This document shows, in pieces, positions 27,502-37,287 of a DNA stretch of 64,000 bases. The stretch is from TPA_inf: Saccharomyces. Its lineage: Eukaryota. The stretch is from contig BK006946.2 in NCBI GenBank assembly GCA_000146045.2, forward strand, positions 480,001 to 544,000, written 5' to 3'. Below the pieces are notes generated by a model. That model was given only the letters and a program-made list of their open reading frames with translations, was not told the origin of the DNA and made no database searches. How positions within the stretch are numbered: the stretch's first letter is position 1; each line of letters opens with the position of its first letter. A program made the translations under genes and the position numbers.

Positions 27502-29280
27502 CTAATGGTGGAACAAACGGATTGGGTTCTCTACGTAAACCAAATCGAATGAATCGGCAGCTGAAAATACAACCTTGTCCATGACAGAACCAGATGGAGC
27601 GGCAATGTATTTGACACCGGATTTAACTGCTCTGTAAACATTGTCTGGGAATGGGAAAAATGCATCCGATGACAAAGAAACGTTGGTTAATTTACTCAAC
27701 CATTCCTTTCTTTCTTCTGGAGTAAATGGTTTTGGAATCTCCTCGAACTTCGATTGGTATTCAGACAATTCTGGTTCTTCTGTTGGAATTTGGCCGGTTA
27801 CGAATAAATCGATAGCATTAGATTTTTCTGGTCTCTTGACGCCTTTAGCCCATTTAATCTCCAAAACTCTAGGGTGTTGTCTGAACCACCAATTATCAGC
27901 CTTATCACCAGCTAATCTTGTACAATGGATTCTAGATTGTTGACCTGCACCCAATCCGACAACCATACCATTTCTAGCATAACATACGGAATTAGATTGA
28001 GTATATTTAATAGCAATGGTGGCAACCGTTAAATCAATTATGGCTTGTTCAGTGAGATTTTTATTTTGAGAAACAATTTCTTTGAAAGTTGATTGATTGA
28101 TTATGGCATCGTTTCTCTTTTGTTCCAAAGTCACACCGTATACTTGTCTTCTTTCGACAGCTTCTGGAACATAGTTTGGATCAATTTGTAATATGCAGTA
28201 CTTACCTCCCTTCTTCTTGGATAGAATGGCCAACGCCTCAGGCTCATAACCTGGGGCAATAACACCATCAGAAACTTCTCTAGATATGATCTTAGCTGTT
28301 GGAACATCAACTATGTTGGAAAGAGCAATCCAATCACCAAAGGAAGACATTCTATCAGCACCACGGGCCCTAGCATAGGCACATGCCAGGGGAGATAAGT
28401 TTTCAATGTCGGCAACAAAATAAACTTGCTTTTCAACATCAGACAATGGGATACCCACAGCGGCACCAGCTGGTGATACATGCTTGAACGATGCTGCTGC
28501 TGGTAAATTCAACGAGGCGGATAATTCCTTAACCAGGGGCCAGGAATTTAGAGCATCCAACAAATTAATGTAACCTGGTGAACCACATAGGACTTTGAAA
28601 GGTAAACTGTCTTGTTGACTGACGTAAGCTTGAGCCGGCTTTTGGTGTGGATTGGCACCATAACGTAGAGTAATTTGAGCTTGACCTTCAGAGTATTGTT
28701 TCCTGAAGAAATCTGAAATTGCAGCATCATAATCGGCAGTGTGTTCGAAAGCCTTTAATGCCAATCTGTTTCTCAAATCTTGAGAGATTTCACCATTACT
28801 GGATAATTCACTTAAAAATTCGGAGTAGTCCTTTGGATCAGATAAAATAGTGACTCTAGCATGGTTCTTAGCAGCTGCTCTTAATAGAGTAACACCACCA
28901 ATATCAATTTCTTCTACTGCTTCTGGAATAGTCACACCCACCTTAGCAACAGTTTCTTTGAATGGGTATAGGTTACAAACGACATAATCGACTTTTTCAA
29001 TGTGCTGTTCCTTCAAGTCTTTCTCATCGCTATCGATGTCCCTAGCAAGGATACCACCATGAACGGCAGGATGTAAAGTTTTCACTCTACCTCCCAACAT
29101 TTCTGGGGCATGTGTGATAGCAGAAACGTCTTCGATTGGAAAACCAGCGTCACGAATCATACGAGCAGTACCACCGGAGGCGAGAATACGAACGTTCTTC
29201 TCGATGAGGCCTCTGGCTAAATCAAGTAGACCTGTCTTGTCATAGACGGATAGGATTGCGGTTTTTGTGTAATTGGCCAT
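27502..29280 (-). CDS. ADE17: Bifunctional AICAR transformylase / IMP cyclohydrolase, 592 aa
   Basis: PurH family. Begins [25 protein letters not shown], which is the MGS-like IMPCH domain, followed by the AICARFT domain. The track ORF has 13 extra N-terminal codons. ADE17 is on chrXIII and ADE16 on chrXII. Confidence 0.9.
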
Positions 29281-29733
29281 ATTTGATGGTGATATGTGCT
29301 TTGATGTCCAAGCTAGCAAAACTACTTCAAGGGCTATTAGTTGCTGGTAAGAAAGATTTTAGGTACTACACTAAAGGTTAAAACGAGCGTACATTTATAT
29401 ACATAGATCCGAACGTGATATGCACATCCGAATATTAACAAGTTATGAGAGGAGTCAATTCATTTCTGGGCACATCAGGGTACACACATTGTAGGGTAGG
29501 ATCTTCTTTATAAATGATAAGTTGACTTCTGCAATGACTTAGTTGGCATGATTAATATTGTTCGTTCCGCTAAGGAAAAAAGAGTCAAAAACTGCAAATT
29601 CAAATTGCGTATGCTGCCAAAGAGCGAAGAATAATAAAAAAAAAATAAGTCGAAGAAAAGGAACGATGAAGTAATCAGGTTGAAAAAATGTTCATAGTGC
29701 ATTATTATTGATCTATATACGGTTCTAACTATT

Positions 29734-30348
29734 TCATTTTCTATACCTCCATAACGACAGAGTATTTTGTCTTTTCCAGGTCTTTCTTCTGCCGGCCTTG
29801 GTGTTGTTGAATTTGTGTCCCTTGTTGATACCCCTGGATTTCTTACCGGTGGCAGTCAAGCCTCTAGCTTCACGATGCTTATGGACGGGATTGCAGATCC
29901 AGTTGTACCGAGCATCTCTTCTGATAGCCTTGTGTTGAGGATCAACCAATATAACTTCGAAGTACTTGTAAGTAGAGTCTTGGTTGACCCAGTAGGAGTT
30001 CAAGACTCTCAAGTTAGCAGCACGACGGCCAACTCTTTCTTCAGCGGTAGCTCTCAAGGATCTTTGGTATTTCAATTCATTGACACCTTGGTTAGTTGGC
30101 TTACCGTAAGTAGCACCCTTTGGAACAGGTCTCTTTCTGTTACCGCGTCTAACCCTGACACGGTAGATAACGAAACCTTGCTTGGCTTTGTAGCCTAGTC
30201 TCCTAGCCTTGTCTGGTCTAGTTGGTCTAGCGGCTCTGTGAATGACATTTTTTTGTCTGTATTCCCAGACCCTGACTCTTTGCAAGAATCTCAAAACATC
30301 AGATTGCTTCTTTCTTTCTAATTCTTCTAAATATTTGTAGGCTCCCAT
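29734..30348 (-). CDS. RPL15B: 60S ribosomal protein L15, 204 aa
   Basis: Begins [32 protein letters not shown] and is very basic. The upstream in-frame extension in the track (31 codons) is not part of the protein. No intron. Confidence 0.9.
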
Positions 30349-30700
30349 TGCTTGTGTGGTAGGTAATTTGTGACTGTCTTTACGGTAGCTTTCGCCGATT
30401 ACTATTGCCGCTAACTTCTCAAGAGTGAATGAAATTATCAATGGCTCCGGTTAATTGAAAACGTGGAAAAGTATCGAAAGGAACAAGAAAGATGTTTTCC
30501 GGGTAACGACATATGGAGCATCAAGACAGATACATCTCTACTGACTACATGTTTGTATCATCATTTGAAGAGATTGGAGAAGTATTCTAGCAATCGGTGC
30601 AAAAAATAAGAGTAAAGAAAAAAGACGTTTGTTTCCTTAAAGGAGCTGGAGGAGCCTGTTTTGGATAGCGGCGTAGTCGCTTTATTAATTTGGTTATACT

Positions 30701-31075
30701 TTAAACGCAAAGATGGCAGTACGAAACCAGCAATGCAGTGATTATATATTCCCTACTAAGGAAAGTTGCGCATCCAATGGGAAACATTTTCCTGATCTGT
30801 ACCTTTGGCAACCTGAATATGCGGTTGGCTGGCAAATAAGGTAGCGTGGAGGCGGTGTTTTTGCCACAAACCAGTACGCCCAATCTATCCCTGCGAGCCA
30901 CCGTAATGATGCAAATTGCAGTAAAGCAGCGCTTAGCCTCCAGCCGAAATTTACTTCCGTCGAATGCACGTTGGCCAGAATGTCTCTCGTCCCCCTTGTG
31001 CTGCGCAAATAACAACGCGTTGGTGCGTTCTGGAACGCGAAGATTGCGAAACACGCCTCCGAACTGACGTAGCAT
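30701..31075 (-). CDS. YMR122C: Uncharacterised ORF YMR122C (124 aa) lying in the RPL15B upstream region; coding status doubtful
   Basis: ORF only. Cys/Arg-rich, atypical composition, and it overlaps the promoter of a highly expressed RP gene. Confidence 0.3.
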   Translation of the reverse strand: MLRQFGGVFRNLRVPERTNALLFAQHKGDERHSGQRAFDGSKFRLEAKRCFTAICIITVARRDRLGVLVCGKNTASTLPYLPANRIFRLPKVQIRKMFPIGCATFLSREYIITALLVSYCHLCV

Positions 31076-31314
31076 AGAGTCTTTCACAGTATTGCCTAAT
31101 GCGGAAATCACATTGCCATATTGGTGAAAAATACAATGGCTAGTTTGATCTATTTTTGGGTTATGGTGTCTCGAGCGTAAAAAGTGAAAAAAAAGTATAT
31201 AAACGATCTGAATTTAAGGCAGAATTCTGTTTGCCGCTCTCAGAATGTACTGTTAATTACTGAGGTCTCCATCAAACACAAACCCCAACCTAATCGCAAA
31301 TAACCTGAATAAAA

Positions 31315-31569
31315 ATGGCCAGCAGTACTTCCACTTCCGCTTCCGCTTCCTCCTCCATCAAAACTAACAGTGCCTTAGTTTCCAACAATGTCGTTGCCGC
31401 CTCTTCCGTCTCTGCTACTTCTACTGCTAGTTCCAGTGCCGCTAAGAACACTACTTCCAGTTCAAAGAACGCTGCTCCAGGCATGGTTGCAAACCCTGTT
31501 TCCTCGAAGTACGGTATCATCATGGCCGCATTTGCTGCTGTTTCTTTCGTCCTAGGCACCGGTATTTAA
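31315..31569 (+). CDS. YMR122W-A: Small Ser/Ala/Thr-rich protein with a C-terminal hydrophobic anchor, 84 aa
   Basis: Begins MASSTSTSASASSSIKTNSALVSNNVVAASSVSATSTASS and ends KYGIIMAAFAAVSFVLGTGI, a predicted tail anchor or GPI-like signal. Confidence 0.75.
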   Translation: MASSTSTSASASSSIKTNSALVSNNVVAASSVSATSTASSSAAKNTTSSSKNAAPGMVANPVSSKYGIIMAAFAAVSFVLGTGI

Positions 31570-32981
31570 GAAGTTTCTAAAAGCCTTTTTTTTTCCTTCT
31601 GCTTATTGTACTATCAAAGGGAACGATTGATTAACAGAAAAATTACATAAAAATCATATCATAATGGACTCGCGGTTGACGCCTAGTTAAACCAATGAAG
31701 AGGTGGGCGAACTTGTGGGAGTTATATATATTTAGGCCAATTGGGCCATTGCATGTTTCCTATAATATATTTTAATATAAAAATTTATTTATTAATACAG
31801 CAACTCATTAGATTAATCGAGTGGTGGTAAGGCTTTTTTTGCTCGCAATGCGAGCACGTGACAGAAAGTGAGAATGAACGTCTGACATTGCTAGTGTCAC
31901 GTTCAGAAAACGAGAAGACGGGTAAAACAAAAATATTGATGATTGTTGGTTAGCAATATCAAATTCATTGAAGGAGGTCACAACCGCGAGAGAAAGTAAG
32001 ATGTCATGTTTTTGAATATGAACCTGGAGCTCGCATATAACTCTTTCCAGTGGCACCTTTAGATTTATTTTAACTCTGAAATGTAGGTTTTTTTTTTTTT
32101 AGACAAGTCACGATAAGTAGTTGTTGTTAGCGACTTTATTCACAGCATTTTTTTATGTAGCATTTGTAGAAATAGGGGAATTATATCGGAGTACTCAAGA
32201 AACTAACGGGCTTCTGAGTAAAGGGGCTTCCCGATGTAATGGCATCCAAGGTACTTATCTAACTGATTTTTGATTGGAAGAAACATTTAGAATGCAACCT
32301 CAATTGTGGGCAATTACGACCAATGACAGCCAAATCCAGTAAGGTTTCAAAGGGATAATTTACTGAGAAAACAGATTTACTATTCTGGAGGCAGGAGTGA
32401 TATATTCTTATTCTTCCTATCCATGGGAATAACGATGCACTTTTTTATGGGTAAGGTGTGCTCCCAGTTTTTCTTACCAAGAAGTGTGCAATTGGTACGG
32501 TAATATCGTATTTGTTTGCACTGATGTACCCACGCTTTAGCCATTTAAGTTATTACGAATCTACTCTGTCTATTTTTTTTTTACCAACTCCCTACCCAGA
32601 GGGAAAATGCGTATGCAATCTAAAATACTTTATTTCCCATTCCGTGCCTTAGGCAAACACAAATGGATTTTGGCTGCATACCGAGGGGTCTAGGTGGTGA
32701 TGAGGTCGCTACAACCCAGGATGGTTATCTCGTTTCTTCGAATTTCCGCAGCAAAGAGGACCCTTATTGCAGGGATGGAACCTTTTCTGCACAAAGCAAA
32801 ATCCTCAGGATGTTTCTCTCCTCTGTCTTTCTTTGCCGAGCTCCATCGTGCTAGCGCATCGGACAGGAAGCAGTGAAATACAAGAAAAGTATACAAGCAG
32901 TATTCCTGCTCAAGAACCCAGTTTTCAGTTATAGTTTCCACTCCTTTCAATAGATGGGAAACTATATATCCATTAACTAAA

Positions 32982-33260
32982 ATGGCCAGTCAGACTATCT
33001 CTTCTCCTCACTAGTGCCTAATCTCTGGTGTCGCCACTCCTGCTGCTGCTAATTATAAGGGCAAAGTCAGACCATCACTTACATTGAGGTGAATATTAAA
33101 ACCAGTGAAGGTTCTGTTTTTCTCGGGAGTATTTCCGGCAGTAACACCGTTACTTATACCAAAGAGAATTTTTCTGTTGGTATGATTACTGACCCTGTCT
33201 GCTCGAAGCACGGTATCATCATTTACCGTTGTTTCTTTCGTCCTAGATATCGGTGTCTCA
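32982..33260 (+). pseudogene. Degenerate duplicate of YMR122W-A (start codon, N-terminal block and C-terminal block recognisable; frame destroyed)
   Basis: 32978-33000 aaaATGGCCAGTCAGACTATCTCTTCTCCTCAC TAG matches aaaATGGCCAGCAGTACTTCCACTTCC at 31312. 33187-33256 GACCCTGTCTGCTCGAAGCACGGTATCATCAT...GTTTCTTTCGTCCTAGATATCGGT matches 31489-31562 AACCCTGTTTCCTCGAAGTACGGTATCATCATGGCCGCATTTGCTGCTGTTTCTTTCGTCCTAGGCACCGGT, with an internal deletion. Confidence 0.55.
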
Positions 33261-33592
33261 GAAACTCCAATTGAAGATGTACAGGTGATTAATTACGTCT
33301 TTTTATCAATCTATTTACCTATATATTTCAATTTTGATTTTTATTTGGCGAGTGACATGTGAAAACTTTGCCTATGAACCTGAATAGCGCATTCATATTT
33401 TAAGAACATGGTAGGGTATAGCAGATGTTCTTTAATTTTCTTTGACTGCGTTTACCCGGCGTTTTTTGCTTGACTGAAAATCAAATGAAGAAAAATAGAG
33501 ATGGTCTTTTCTTTTTGTCATATCCAAGAACACGTCCATCTAATTGATTAGTGCCAAAAATCGCAGGGATATAACTTCGAAAATTTCTCAAA

Positions 33593-33961
33593 ATGGCCAA
33601 TTTTTTTGTTAGACTGTGGGAAAGTGTATTTGAACCAGGGACCTCCCCCCAGCTGATCATCGCCACACACGTATCTTTTGTTGCACTACTACTGACCCTC
33701 ATCTGGCTCATCTATGCCACAAACGGGAATATCCACTTCTATGCTCTTTTCTGTATATCACTTTTACTATGGATTACCGTTATCTGGTTTATAAACGAAT
33801 TATCACACGTCAAATTGAAGGATAATGATGAGCTGGATAAAGATGCCAATAAAAAGGACGACAGTGCCATCAAGGAAGACAGCGAAGACAAGCAAGAAAG
33901 CGGGAAATCCACTAGTACTGCCAGACGGACTCAAGCACAATCTAGGTCAAGAAAAGCATAG
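33593..33961 (+). CDS. PKR1: V-ATPase assembly factor, small ER membrane protein, 122 aa
   Basis: Two transmembrane segments (HVSFVALLLTLIWLIYA and FYALFCISLLLWITVIWFI) plus a charged tail. Length and position match YMR123W. Confidence 0.8.
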   Translation: MANFFVRLWESVFEPGTSPQLIIATHVSFVALLLTLIWLIYATNGNIHFYALFCISLLLWITVIWFINELSHVKLKDNDELDKDANKKDDSAIKEDSEDKQESGKSTSTARRTQAQSRSRKA

Positions 33962-34455
33962 ACAGATACATAATTGACTACATAATTATCTCTGTTATTA
34001 GTATATCACAGAGCTTCCGGGTAAATGTCCGCAATTGTAAATTTTTTTGTCCGCTTCAGGGTCTCCCCTGATATTTTTTTTTTTTCAAAAATTCCTTTTT
34101 TTTAAATCAAATTTTGGGCTCAATTATGGACAAATGAAGCACATGCAAAGAGTTAACGCGTGCGACTGAATAGAACAACTCTTTCAGCATCGCAAACCCT
34201 TCAAATTGTGAATAAATAGGCATTTCAAGTAACTGTGTCAGCAGCACATTGCATAGGAATTCTGATTTTTTGTTTTAGTGACTGCCCTCCTAATTTTTTT
34301 TTTTTTAGTTTACGGCTATAGCTAAATTTGGAGCTTTCTTTCATTAATTTTCACCGAGCTATTAATAACCCTACAAAAAGAGCAGAGAGGTACAGCCTGA
34401 TCCGATAAAGCAGTGGGATAAAAAGTACTCAAAGACTATTTATAAAAAGTTCAAA

Positions 34456-37287
34456 ATGGATGCAGGTTTATCGACCATGGCAACAAGAAACGGTCAGTCT
34501 TCTGCTAGAGTTAAATTGAGAAATAACCTCTTGAATAATGATATAGGAAATATTGACATTAGGGATGAAACACCTATTTCAAGGAACGGGAATGACAGCA
34601 ATATTAACATCCAGCCTTCTTCCGTGCCGCAGCAGCAGCAGCAGCAGCAGCAATACTACCGTAATGGCATGAATGAGGCTCCAATACAAGCGCCACTTCA
34701 ACAACGTCAAATTCCCATGCAGAATTATTCACAACAGCAACGCCAGCAACAACAGTATAATTTTGAGTATTCCAATCCACATATGAATGAGATTCCCCTC
34801 ATGCAGCATAACTTCACCAAACCATCACTAAGCAATAATCGCGATAATGTTAATGGTAAGAAAGCTTCCTCATTTACCCAGAGCTCATTTTCCAATTTTT
34901 TCAAACATAAGCATCAATTTGGGAAGTCAAAGAAAAACACTAAGGGGACAGGAGGTGGTGGAGATGGTGATGATGACGATGAGGTTATCTTGGATGATTC
35001 TGCAAACTCCGACCTAACATTCAATGACATTCAGACCTTCGGTCACAAGGGCGGTGACAAATATGGATATGGTGGTGATTCCACTCCTATCATTCCAACA
35101 TTGGTGACTAAAGACCGCGGCAATATGAGTAATACTGAGTATAGGAAGTACATTACTAATCAAAGGAAAACCGCAATGAATGCCATGGCTAAACAAACTA
35201 AAAATGGTACATTAGCCTCGTTGCCTCCGAGAGCAATGTCTTTGCAAAGTTTCCCGAATGGTAATCCTTTAATGCAAGCACCCACTCCTCATCCTAGATT
35301 TCAACCGAATAAAATGGTGAGCGCTAATTATTCGAGATCAAATTCGTTGATGAGTGGACCTCCCGGACAATTTCGACAGCCGCAGCAACAAAGAATGCTA
35401 CCGATGAACAACTACAACAATCACCCAGGTCAATTCCAGAATACCCCACCAGTAATGCCCTCTGGACAACAGCCACCTCAGCAACCACGTACTCTGTCAT
35501 TAACTAATGGCCCAAGATATTCACCCCAAAATCCTCGGCCATTCGCAGGTCATCAGCAGATATCACAAAGACAACAACAACAACAACAACAACTTCAACT
35601 TCATCCAATGTCTGAAGGCTATCGGACAATGTCTCTACAAAGTCAGAACGTTCCCCAAGGGTTTAATCCATGGTCACCAAATGACAACGATCGTAAAGCT
35701 GTGTCCATGAAACAGCCAATCAGTCAATCGTCAATTTCCTCAAAGAATAATTCAGCTTATTCAATACCGAACGTACAAAACAACTCCCTGACTACATTCT
35801 CTCCGTCATCTCCTACTGATGCTACAGCAATGCCTAACTCTACAAAACAAGGATCTTCACCACTAAAAAAACAAGTGAACATTGATCAACCTATTGAAAA
35901 CAAGGGAAAACTGAATGTTTTGCAATTATCCACTCCTCAACAAAACGAGTTAAAGGAAAAAGAAAGGAAGCTAGCTGAAATGGAAAAATCTTTACGTGAG
36001 AGAGAAGCACTAGTAGAAGAAAAAGAAAAGGAAAGAGCTGAGAAAAATACTGAAGCAAATGAAGAGGAGGAAATTTCACATGAATCAGACGATTTAAATT
36101 TAAGACCTGCGAGTGCGCTAGAGACTGGTTTAAAAGATCTTAAATTGGAAAGTGAAAGTGCAGTCGCCAATAGAGCGTCCTTGTCGACTTTCTCATCCAC
36201 ATTTAGTGATTCTCCCTCCAAGCAAAGAATCATCAATACCAGAACAGGTATGTATAAGCTAGAAAACTCTACTGATATCAATGAATACGTGACCGCACAA
36301 GAATTCCCCTCTCCCGGAAAGTATAACTCAAATTCGGATAATGGCGAAATGAATACAACGAACGAGGTCGATTTTGATTTCAATACTAGTAAAAGGGCTT
36401 CTTTGTTACAATCCATACCGGAAAGAGATCCCAAAAGAAATGTCTCAGATGCTACCATTAAGCGACGTGAATCCGATGGCAATGGCAGGAGACTAAGTAA
36501 TGTCAACATATCCATGAACCAGGAAAACATCAACAATGATACTTTTCTATATAAAAAAAATAATCGCGATGGTCATTTATCAGCAGTTTCTCATATGTCC
36601 AGCTCTTCCCGTAGATCGTTCATCTCCAATACGCTGCCGTTGAATATTGATTCCGCCTCAGAATCTGATAATTTTGTACCGCATATGGATGGTTCACCCT
36701 CCAAAACAAAATCAGCCCCAGTTAGCTACGATAAGGATGGCATGAATGCTTCAGAAGAAGACTTCAGTTTTGATAATACTTTAGCCAAACCGTATGAACC
36801 GTTATATGCTAGGAGAGGAGACATAACTTCCGCCGGATCAACTAGTGGAGAAGATAGCTCTCAGCCAAAGATGATAACAATATCTGGTGAGCAATTGAAT
36901 TTGATAACAGAAAACAAAGAATTAATGAATGAGTTGACACTGGTGTCTACAGAATTAGCAGAATCGATAAAAAGGGAAACTGAATTAGAAGAAAGAATAC
37001 GGCTGTATGAAACCAATAATTCAGCACCATCTTTTGACGATTCTTCGAGTGTGTCTTTTTCTGACTTTGAAAAGGAACTGAGAAAAAAATCCAGTAAAAT
37101 TGTGCAATTGATCCAGCAATTAAATGACGAGAGATTAAAGAGATTCATTGCGGAGGAGCAGTTATTACTCCAAGAAAATGGCACCAAACCAAGTTCTATG
37201 GAACTAGTAGGAAGAATTGAAAACTTGAATAAACTTATTGATGAGAGAGATTCAGAAATTGAAATGCTTAAAGGACGTTTACAGTAG
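34456..37287 (+). CDS. EPO1: Cortical ER / polarity protein, 943 aa, low-complexity Q/N/S-rich with C-terminal coiled coil
   Basis: Poly-Q from (CAG)7CAA at 34630-34653, and a second Q-run (CAA)n at 35569-35597. C-terminal coiled coil ELKEKERKLAEMEKSLREREALVEEKEKERAEK. Matches YMR124W. Confidence 0.8.
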   Translation: MDAGLSTMATRNGQSSARVKLRNNLLNNDIGNIDIRDETPISRNGNDSNINIQPSSVPQQQQQQQQYYRNGMNEAPIQAPLQQRQIPMQNYSQQQRQQQQYNFEYSNPHMNEIPLMQHNFTKPSLSNNRDNVNGKKASSFTQSSFSNFFKHKHQFGKSKKNTKGTGGGGDGDDDDEVILDDSANSDLTFNDIQTFGHKGGDKYGYGGDSTPIIPTLVTKDRGNMSNTEYRKYITNQRKTAMNAMAKQTKNGTLASLPPRAMSLQSFPNGNPLMQAPTPHPRFQPNKMVSANYSRSNSLMSGPPGQFRQPQQQRMLPMNNYNNHPGQFQNTPPVMPSGQQPPQQPRTLSLTNGPRYSPQNPRPFAGHQQISQRQQQQQQQLQLHPMSEGYRTMSLQSQNVPQGFNPWSPNDNDRKAVSMKQPISQSSISSKNNSAYSIPNVQNNSLTTFSPSSPTDATAMPNSTKQGSSPLKKQVNIDQPIENKGKLNVLQLSTPQQNELKEKERKLAEMEKSLREREALVEEKEKERAEKNTEANEEEEISHESDDLNLRPASALETGLKDLKLESESAVANRASLSTFSSTFSDSPSKQRIINTRTGMYKLENSTDINEYVTAQEFPSPGKYNSNSDNGEMNTTNEVDFDFNTSKRASLLQSIPERDPKRNVSDATIKRRESDGNGRRLSNVNISMNQENINNDTFLYKKNNRDGHLSAVSHMSSSSRRSFISNTLPLNIDSASESDNFVPHMDGSPSKTKSAPVSYDKDGMNASEEDFSFDNTLAKPYEPLYARRGDITSAGSTSGEDSSQPKMITISGEQLNLITENKELMNELTLVSTELAESIKRETELEERIRLYETNNSAPSFDDSSSVSFSDFEKELRKKSSKIVQLIQQLNDERLKRFIAEEQLLLQENGTKPSSMELVGRIENLNKLIDERDSEIEMLKGRLQ

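What the first reader, a model, noticed from the sequence alone, without database searches (positions are those of the whole stretch)
32982..33260. Decayed second copy of YMR122W-A about 1.4 kb downstream of the intact gene
The start context and first 5 codons (aaaATGGCCAGTCAGACT vs aaaATGGCCAGCAGTACT) match the intact gene. So does a 70-nt C-terminal block, tcgaagcacggtatcatcat[deletion]gtttctttcgtcctag, in the same order and orientation. The copy has a stop at codon 11 and an internal deletion. This looks like a tandem duplication relic of a tiny tail-anchored-like protein gene. I do not recall a pseudogene annotated at this position, though that could be my memory gap.
Basis: seen in the sequence. 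Interest (0 to 1): 0.55.

Follow-up and report, generated by a model that had tools for sequence, protein, structure and literature searches.

The report
Dead tandem paralogue of yeast YMR122W-A
The stretch is a real but ordinary dead gene: the decayed remains of an old neighbouring duplicate of the tiny membrane-protein gene YMR122W-A, still intact in the sister yeast S. paradoxus.

Summary
Window 32982-33260 (+) lies 1.4 kb downstream of YMR122W-A (31315-31569) and 330 nt upstream of PKR1. Its 3' block matches the gene's 3' end far beyond chance (blastn E=4e-11 in the window; shuffle z=20).

The decisive evidence is an intact 95-codon ORF at exactly this position in S. paradoxus CBS432. The same ORF occurs in S. 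paradoxus-type haplotypes carried by S. cerevisiae strains AHL, AVB and AIE.

Against that orthologue, the reference relic has these lesions:
- a +1/-1 indel pair that creates TAG at codon 11
- a -1 frameshift
- an 8-nt deletion
- a lost stop codon

Three of the indels are shared by divergent wild Asian S. cerevisiae, so the gene died before the sampled S. cerevisiae lineages (reference-type and wild Asian) diverged.

Decayed copies also sit at the same place in S. mikatae and S. kudriavzevii. S. eubayanus and N. castellii have one gene. The duplication is therefore old, and it included the promoter.

Two extras came out of the comparison. Either copy can be the broken one in S. paradoxus lineages, but one intact copy always remains. 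Part of the tail-coding 3' end of YMR122W-A in S. cerevisiae and S. paradoxus looks overwritten by copy 2 through gene conversion.

This is an unannotated member of a known kind, a tandem gene relic. Interest is modest.

The parts
31315..31569 (+). YMR122W-A (copy 1). Intact 84-aa gene. It is the upstream member of the old tandem pair.
   Evidence: ORF list. Orthologues of 80-86 aa are found in S. paradoxus, S. mikatae, S. kudriavzevii, S. arboricola, S. eubayanus and N. castellii. dN/dS between S. cerevisiae and S. paradoxus is 0.04.
31487..31558 (+). Putative gene-conversion tract inside YMR122W-A, minimum 31505-31558. Copy-2 character states appear at 31505, 31519, 31541 and 31558, corresponding to W>S, V>I, G>V and A>T.
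   Evidence: Four consecutive diagnostic sites carry the copy-2 state. They are flanked by copy-1 states at 31477-31486 and at 31559. Fisher p=1.4e-4 using S. paradoxus copy 2, and p=0.004 using only the S. mikatae and S. kudriavzevii copy-2 states. This is an inference, not a demonstration.
32680..32978 (+). Decayed duplicate of the YMR122W-A promoter. It includes the mutated TATA-like element AAGAAAAGTATACAA at 32882-32896, against AAAAAAAGTATATAA at 31188-31202.
   Evidence: A collinear 15-nt repeat has the same spacing (1694 nt) as the coding blocks. Alignment of upstream-1 against upstream-2 gives z=2.6 in S. cerevisiae, 3.7 in CBS432 and 8.0 in S. paradoxus lineage L033. See also alignment A2.
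32982..33260 (+). The relic (copy 2). It is the pseudogenised orthologue of the 95-aa S. paradoxus gene P0005.
   Evidence: Syntenic with L023 3387-3674 and L001 5001-5288.
33009..33017 (+). Lesions 1 and 2. A +1 insertion (C at 33009) is present in the reference-type haplotypes only. A -1 deletion between 33016 and 33017 is present in all four other S. cerevisiae assemblies examined. Together they put TAG in frame at 33012-33014 (codon 11).
   Evidence: Alignment with S. paradoxus and with the four other S. cerevisiae assemblies.
33070..33071 (+). Lesion 3. A -1 frameshift: GTCAG^ACC against GTCAGTACC in S. paradoxus.
   Evidence: Shared by all five S. cerevisiae haplotypes examined.
33219..33220 (+). 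Lesion 4. An 8-nt deletion inside the hydrophobic-tail coding block (position uncertain by about 2 nt).
   Evidence: Shared by all five S. cerevisiae haplotypes examined.
33258..33260 (+). Lesion 5. The former stop codon TAA has become TCA. This change is seen in the reference haplotype only.
   Evidence: L029-L032 retain TAA.
33593..33961 (+). PKR1 (YMR123W). The downstream neighbour used as the synteny anchor.
   Evidence: Pfam PF08636 orthologues. Copy 2 ends about 330 nt upstream of it in S. cerevisiae, S. paradoxus and S. mikatae, and about 370 nt upstream in S. kudriavzevii.

Best explanation
Window 32982-33260 is a non-functional gene relic, an unprocessed pseudogene. It is the S. cerevisiae orthologue of the downstream member ('copy 2') of an old tandem pair whose upstream member is YMR122W-A ('copy 1').

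1. A segment holding the promoter and the coding region of a small gene was duplicated in tandem between RPL15B and PKR1. The gene encodes a Ser/Thr-rich protein with a C-terminal hydrophobic tail. The duplication happened before S. kudriavzevii split off (shown) and possibly before S. arboricola did (weak trace only).
2. Copy 2 diverged strongly in its N-terminal two thirds but kept the juxtamembrane motif and the tail.
3. Copy 2 stayed under purifying selection for much of the time since the S. cerevisiae / S. paradoxus split (dN/dS about 0.3).
4. [quoted passage not shown] The reference strain has added a further indel and lost the stop codon.
5. Before copy 2 died, about 55-70 nt of its 3' end appear to have been copied into YMR122W-A by gene conversion, in the common ancestor of S. 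cerevisiae and S. paradoxus (inferred).

The pattern of loss suggests the two copies are at least partly redundant (inferred). Either copy can be the broken one, but every haplotype seen keeps at least one intact.
For: Homology:
- 3' block E=3.9e-11 and z=20.
- Collinear start block, 3' block and TATA block with spacings of 1667-1694 nt.
- Promoter homology z=8.0 with 0 of 500 shuffles reaching it in L033, z=3.7 in CBS432, z=2.6 in S. cerevisiae.

Intact orthologue:
- P0005 (95 aa) was found with the YMR122W-A protein as query.
- It is encoded 327 nt upstream of PKR1 in L001 and L020-L028.
- The ORF is intact in S. paradoxus CBS432 (GCA_002079055.1, L023 3387-3674) and in L036.
- These haplotypes are 85-88% identical to the window over 10 kb and 99.7-99.9% identical to CBS432.
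- Their PKR1 protein is identical to the S. paradoxus PKR1 entry.

Lesions:
- Five are listed under 'parts'.
- Three are shared by four other S. cerevisiae assemblies, L029-L032. Their PKR1 proteins are shared with entries named XXYS1_4, EM14S01-3B and CFS.

Other species:
- S. mikatae copy 2 (L014 4478-4708) has no ATG, and its stop codon is lost.
- S. kudriavzevii keeps only the last 35 codons, in two strains.
- S. eubayanus and N. castellii have a single gene.

Past constraint:
- 22 synonymous against 26 non-synonymous differences, dN/dS 0.25-0.32.
- Binomial p=0.001 against neutrality.

Alternative loss:
- Copy 1 has a +G frameshift and copy 2 is intact in L001-L006, L020-L022 and L024-L028.
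- Copy 1 is intact and copy 2 has two -1 frameshifts in L033-L035.
- Both are intact in CBS432 and L036.

Conversion.

Nothing else is detectable at the site. There is no Rfam hit and no tRNA.
Against: - No expression data could be consulted. Transcription, or a residual non-coding or promoter role for PKR1, which starts 330 nt downstream, is not excluded.
- Only five S. cerevisiae haplotypes were inspected.
- All intact copy-2 sequences belong to one S. paradoxus lineage (99.7-99.9% alike). Their intactness is therefore weak evidence of function. The dN/dS argument rests on 48 substitutions and a simple Nei-Gojobori count.
- At protein level only the last 34 residues of copy 2 are significantly similar to an unconverted family member (E=4e-14). 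The N-terminal 63 residues give no alignment. Whole-gene duplication therefore rests on the start context and the promoter homology.
- The conversion tract rests on 4-6 sites.
- SGD's current feature table could not be checked.
Confidence: 0.92

Rival explanations
1. Copy 2 is not a whole-gene duplicate of YMR122W-A. It is an unrelated small gene that acquired only the 3' tail-coding segment from its neighbour, by gene conversion or a partial duplication.
For: The N-terminal 63 residues of the intact S. paradoxus protein show no significant similarity to the family. Only the last 34 residues do. Conversion between the two loci does seem to occur.
Against: The same start context, AAAATGGCCAG, is present. 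There is collinear promoter homology over about 270 nt with z=8.0 in L033. A collinear TATA block has matching spacing. Orientation, size class and architecture are the same. S. kudriavzevii and S. mikatae copy 2 also share the tail although their copy 1 is unconverted.
Confidence: 0.1
2. The relic still does something in S. cerevisiae. It could be part of the PKR1 promoter or 5' region, a non-coding transcript, or a short peptide from the residual 61-codon GTG-started ORF at 33089-33274.
For: It lies only 330 nt upstream of the PKR1 ATG. The sequence has not been deleted in any lineage sampled.
Against: The residual ORF has no ATG start and reads the tail out of frame. Lesions keep accumulating and differ between strains. 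The TATA-like element is mutated. The same region is far more decayed in S. kudriavzevii and S. arboricola, while the proximal PKR1 promoter block stays conserved. There is no Rfam match.
Confidence: 0.06
3. The similarity is a chance or low-complexity artefact, or the lesions are sequencing errors in the reference.
For: The 11-mer at the start is at chance level on its own. The family is Ser/Thr-rich, which inflates protein scores. The hit to the 5118-aa bacterial repeat protein P0057 is an example.
Against: E=3.9e-11 and z=20 for a block that is not low-complexity. There is an intact syntenic orthologue. The same three indels occur in four further independent S. cerevisiae assemblies.
Confidence: 0.01

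Closest known systems
Tandem gene arrays with a gene relic ('1 CDS + 1 relic' class; Despons et al. 2010, PMC2822764) and intergenic gene relics of S. cerevisiae (Lafontaine et al. 2004, recalled from memory; that paper could not be read)
   Same: One intact gene sits next to a same-strand degenerate copy carrying stops and frameshifts. This fits birth-and-death evolution of tandem duplicates.
   Different: Despons et al. state that the 1CDS-relic class is absent from S288C. Neither their supplements nor those of Scannell et al. 2011 mention YMR122W-A. This case seems to have been missed, probably because the protein-level signal is borderline (tblastn E=1.8e-4).
Duplicates kept in S. paradoxus but lost in parallel in other Saccharomyces species (YML020W and SSU1 in Scannell et al. 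2011, PMC3276118)
   Same: The second copy is retained in S. paradoxus and independently pseudogenised in several other Saccharomyces lineages (for the precedent; here).
   Different: Those precedents are whole-genome-duplication pairs. This is a local tandem pair. It also shows within-species alternative loss in S. paradoxus and an apparent conversion into the surviving copy.
YMR122W-A protein family: small Saccharomycetaceae proteins of 80-110 aa with a Ser/Thr-rich N-terminal part, the motif KNAAPGMV(A/V)NPVSWKYG and a C-terminal hydrophobic tail. I recall the SGD standard name as NCW1, from memory only.
   Same: The intact S. paradoxus copy 2 keeps the motif (ENAAIGMIANPVSSKYG) and the 17-residue terminal hydrophobic segment ending GxGI.
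   Different: Its first 60 residues are not low-complexity Ser/Ala/Thr. Instead they read ...CKDKVSTITYIEVNTKTSEGSVFVESISGSSTVTYTKEN and have no detectable relatives. There is no Pfam family for either copy.

Membership tests
Unprocessed (duplicative) pseudogene / tandem gene relic | Significant homology to a neighbouring functional gene, in the same orientation and collinear | tested here: met
   blastn E=3.9e-11 and z=20. Three collinear blocks with spacings of 1667-1694 nt.
Unprocessed (duplicative) pseudogene / tandem gene relic | Reading frame destroyed by stops or frameshifts relative to an intact orthologue | tested here: met
   Five lesions against S. paradoxus copy 2. The longest residual ORF is 61 codons with a GTG start.
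Unprocessed (duplicative) pseudogene / tandem gene relic | Lesions are real and fixed in the species, not assembly errors or a private allele | tested here: met
   Three indels are shared by four further S. cerevisiae assemblies, L029-L032, whose PKR1 proteins are shared with entries named XXYS1_4, EM14S01-3B and CFS. Only five haplotypes were sampled.
Unprocessed (duplicative) pseudogene / tandem gene relic | Flanking (promoter) sequence was duplicated as well, which distinguishes it from a processed retro-copy | tested here: met
   Upstream-1 against upstream-2 alignment gives z=8.0 (L033), 3.7 (CBS432) and 2.6 (S. cerevisiae). No poly(A) tract follows the relic.
Unprocessed (duplicative) pseudogene / tandem gene relic | Absence of expression or function | not testable with these tools
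   No transcriptome or ribosome-profiling data are accessible here.
YMR122W-A protein family (membership of the ancestral copy 2) | Conserved juxtamembrane motif plus a terminal hydrophobic tail of about 17 residues ending GxGI-stop | tested here: met
   BLASTP of P0005 against the S. eubayanus single-copy protein gives 24 of 34 identical, E=4e-14. Kyte-Doolittle maximum is 2.68 at residues 79-95.
YMR122W-A protein family (membership of the ancestral copy 2) | Similarity over the N-terminal Ser/Thr-rich part | tested here: not met
   No alignment with E<=100 for residues 1-63. Only the DNA start context is shared.
   Hydropathy only. The tail at residues 68-84 has KD 2.24, and the first 20 residues have a mean KD of -0.15. 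A single conserved transmembrane domain and an ER location are reported in PMC4710237.
The alternative is a GPI-attachment signal, since N-A-A followed by a spacer and a hydrophobic end is also GPI-like. | not testable with these tools
   Needs experiments. The GPI-like resemblance is my own reading of the sequence.

The most novel reading that the evidence does not exclude
YMR122W-A and its tandem paralogue form a functionally redundant pair that is being resolved differently in different lineages. Copy 2 is dead in S. cerevisiae, S. mikatae, S. kudriavzevii and one S. paradoxus lineage. Copy 1 is frameshifted in a European-type S. paradoxus haplotype. S. cerevisiae strains AHL, AVB and AIE carry that haplotype, so they have in effect swapped which paralogue is active. 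In addition, the transmembrane tail of today's S. cerevisiae YMR122W-A is itself a gene-conversion graft from the now-dead copy.
Probability: 0.45. Interest if true: 0.45.

Novelty: new member of a known kind. Interest (0 to 1): 0.33.

Why it matters
1. It would add an apparently unrecorded pseudogene to the best-annotated eukaryotic genome. It would also correct the statement that S288C has no 'one gene + one relic' tandem arrays.
2. It reveals an unannotated 95-aa gene in the S. paradoxus CBS432 record. A paralogue matters for anyone studying the uncharacterised but highly expressed YMR122W-A. Natural S. cerevisiae strains with the introgressed haplotype lack an intact YMR122W-A but carry the paralogue.
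3. It is a compact example of birth-and-death evolution with alternative loss and gene conversion. It could be used to test redundancy of small tail-anchored or GPI-like proteins.

None of this changes general understanding.

Tried and rejected
- A protein search with P0005 among 5.8 billion proteins found only its own cluster plus a YMR122W-A fragment filed under Fusarium.
- An exhaustive phmmer search of 1.84 billion representatives found nothing further, apart from a 5118-aa bacterial repeat adhesin. That hit is a summed low-complexity artefact.
- Pfam gave no family for any member.
- Rfam at E<=1 and a tRNA scan over 31000-34000 and 29000-35000 gave nothing.
- S. arboricola gave only a marginal 43-nt trace at the syntenic spot, L015 4524-4566. 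It scores z=4.4 against the S. eubayanus gene and z=0.5 against S. paradoxus copy 2. I do not count it as shown.
- Homology between the two 3' flanks, or across the 1.4-kb spacer, was not detectable by blastn.
- Literature:
  - The Lafontaine 2004 relic catalogue is not held.
  - Ten papers mentioning YMR122W-A say nothing about a paralogue.
  - The SearchDOGS paper (PMC3161974), Scannell 2011 and Despons 2010 do not mention the locus.
  - The mapping NCW1 = YMR122W-A could not be confirmed from the papers read.
- The clade of strains AHL, AVB and AIE and the identity of the Logan runs were not established.

Full report
**Setting.** The window is S. cerevisiae chromosome XIII. The relevant genes are RPL15B (29734-30441, minus strand), YMR122W-A (31315-31569, plus strand, 84 aa), PKR1/YMR123W (33593-33961) and YMR124W (34456-37287). 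The finding covers 32982-33260. It lies in the 2-kb gap between YMR122W-A and PKR1.

**Observation.**
- The start context and first codons match: 32979-32996 against 31312-31329, with an exact 11-mer and 14 of 18 bases identical.
- Codon 11 is TAG (33012-33014).
- The 3' block 33179-33263 aligns with 31480-31572 over 93 columns at 73% identity with one 8-nt gap.
- With the gene as query against the whole 64-kb window, this block is the only non-self hit of note (E=3.9e-11).
- The local alignment score is 66, against 19.1 +/- 2.3 for shuffles (z=20).
- The start 11-mer is at chance level on its own. However, the repeat finder returns three collinear blocks with nearly the same spacing:
  - a TATA-like block, 31188-31202 and 32882-32896, spacing 1694
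  - the start block, spacing 1667
  - the 3' block, spacing 1691

**The intact orthologue.**
- Searching the YMR122W-A protein returned P0005 as well as the expected orthologues. P0005 is a 95-aa protein annotated in S. cerevisiae strains AHL, AVB and AIE.
- Its sequence reads like a repaired translation of the relic: [95 protein letters not shown].
- It is encoded 327 nt upstream of PKR1, exactly the relic's position.
- Those contigs are only 85-88% identical to the window over 10 kb. Their PKR1 protein is identical to the S. paradoxus PKR1 entry. They are 99.7-99.9% identical to S. paradoxus CBS432. They are therefore S. paradoxus-type, presumably introgressed, haplotypes.
- In CBS432 itself (GCA_002079055.1, L023) the same 95-codon ORF is intact at 3387-3674, although no gene is called there.

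**Lesions.** Relative to S. paradoxus copy 2, the reference relic carries five lesions:
1. a +1 insertion at 33009
2. a -1 deletion at 33016/33017, which together with the insertion creates the in-frame TAG
3. a -1 deletion at 33070/33071
4. an 8-nt deletion at about 33219/33220
5. loss of the stop codon (TAA to TCA, 33258-33260)

Four further S. cerevisiae assemblies (L029-L032) were compared. Their PKR1 proteins are shared with entries named XXYS1_4, EM14S01-3B and CFS, which I take to include wild Asian isolates. They share the two -1 deletions and the 8-nt deletion. The three assemblies L029-L031 lack the +1 insertion, and all four keep TAA. [quoted passage not shown]

**Age and extent of the duplication.**

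| Species | Copy 1 | Copy 2 |
|---|---|---|
| S. mikatae | intact, 80 aa | degenerate at L014 4478-4708: open for 76 codons, no ATG, altered 3' end, stop lost |
| S. kudriavzevii (two strains) | intact | only the last 35 codons recognisable (L007 7254-7358) |
| S. arboricola | intact | a marginal 43-nt trace at most |
| S. eubayanus | single gene | none |
| N. castellii | single gene | none |

- The duplication thus predates the S. kudriavzevii split.
- The regions upstream of the two copies are still alignable: z=8.0 in S. paradoxus lineage L033, 3.7 in CBS432 and 2.6 in S. cerevisiae. The duplicated unit therefore included at least about 270 nt of promoter. This is a segmental tandem duplication, not a retro-copy.
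- At protein level only the last 34 residues of copy 2 resemble an unconverted family member (E=4e-14). The first 63 residues have no detectable relatives anywhere.

**Was copy 2 ever a real gene?**
- Between S. paradoxus copy 2 and the frame-repaired S. cerevisiae relic there are 22 synonymous and 26 non-synonymous differences.
- That gives dN/dS of 0.25-0.32, and p=0.001 against neutrality. For copy 1 the ratio is 0.04.
- Copy 2 therefore coded for protein under relaxed but real constraint for much of the time since the two species split.

**Alternative loss.** Three states occur in the S. paradoxus clade:
- CBS432 and L036: both copies intact.
- The haplotype found in AHL, AVB and AIE and in many Logan runs: copy 1 has a +G frameshift (CCAGGGTATGG) that truncates it to 55 aa without the tail. 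Copy 2 is intact.
- A divergent lineage (L033-L035, about 92% identical to CBS432): copy 1 is intact, and copy 2 has two -1 frameshifts.

No haplotype seen has lost both copies. I read this as partial redundancy. That is an inference.

**Gene conversion.**
- In the last 96 nt, S. cerevisiae and S. paradoxus copy 1 carry the copy-2 state at four consecutive diagnostic sites: 31505, 31519, 31541 and 31558. These change W>S, V>I, G>V and A>T in a tail that is otherwise conserved as far out as N. castellii.
- These sites are flanked by copy-1 states.
- The derived changes are concentrated at sites where copy 2 differs: Fisher p=1.4e-4, or p=0.004 using only S. mikatae and S. kudriavzevii copy 2 to fix the direction.
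- This suggests a transfer of about 55-70 nt from copy 2 into copy 1 in the common ancestor of S. cerevisiae and S. paradoxus. The sample of sites is small.

**Known or not.**
- Despons et al. 2010 scanned S288C for exactly this class and report that 1CDS-relic arrays are absent there.
- Their supplements, Scannell et al. 2011 with its supplements, the SearchDOGS paper (PMC3161974) and ten papers citing YMR122W-A do not mention the locus.
- The 2004 relic catalogue and SGD itself could not be consulted.

**Verdict.** This is a real, ordinary tandem gene relic, apparently unrecorded. It comes with a small evolutionary story: an intact orthologue in S. paradoxus, alternative loss and probable conversion. 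It is a new member of a known kind, of modest interest.

Noticed in passing
L001 3101-3344; also L002-L006, L020-L022 and L024-L028: In the European-type S. paradoxus haplotype the YMR122W-A orthologue has a +G frameshift (CCAGGGTATGG against CCAGGTATGG). This truncates it to 55 aa without the hydrophobic tail. S. cerevisiae assemblies AHL, AVB and AIE and many Logan runs carry this haplotype. CBS432 (L023) and L036 lack the frameshift.
   Followed up: yes
L023 3387-3674 (S. paradoxus CBS432, GCA_002079055.1): An intact 95-codon ORF identical to P0005 has no called gene in this record. It is apparently an unannotated gene in the S. paradoxus reference.
   Followed up: partly
P0001 (no window coordinates): A 66-aa 'Fusarium falciforme hypothetical protein NW754_016612' is 98% identical to S. 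cerevisiae YMR122W-A. It looks like yeast contamination in that assembly.
   Followed up: no
window 33450-33459: GTTTACCCGG lies about 135 nt upstream of the PKR1 ATG. Its core TTTACCCGG is invariant across six Saccharomyces species, in an otherwise poorly conserved promoter. It is a candidate regulatory site.
   Followed up: no
L016 5001-5489 (S. eubayanus); P0015 (VIN7): PKR1 is annotated with N-terminal extensions (162 and 145 aa against 122 aa). The conserved ATG is at L016 5121. These are probably start-codon mis-annotations.
   Followed up: no
window 32889-32895; L033 about 2860; L023 about 3290: The TATA element upstream of copy 2 is TATATAA in the divergent S. paradoxus lineage whose copy 2 is frameshifted. 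It is TATACAA in S. cerevisiae. In CBS432, whose ORF is intact, it is disrupted (GTGTAAG). Whether copy 2 is expressed in CBS432 is therefore open.
   Followed up: partly
window 31570-32980: The 1.4-kb spacer between the two copies has no ORF over 86 codons, no tRNA and no Rfam hit. Beyond the roughly 300 nt next to copy 2, it has no detectable similarity to the region upstream of copy 1. Apart from that promoter-homologous end, its origin is unexplained. The spacer is shorter in S. kudriavzevii, S. mikatae and S. arboricola (about 0.8-1.0 kb).
   Followed up: partly
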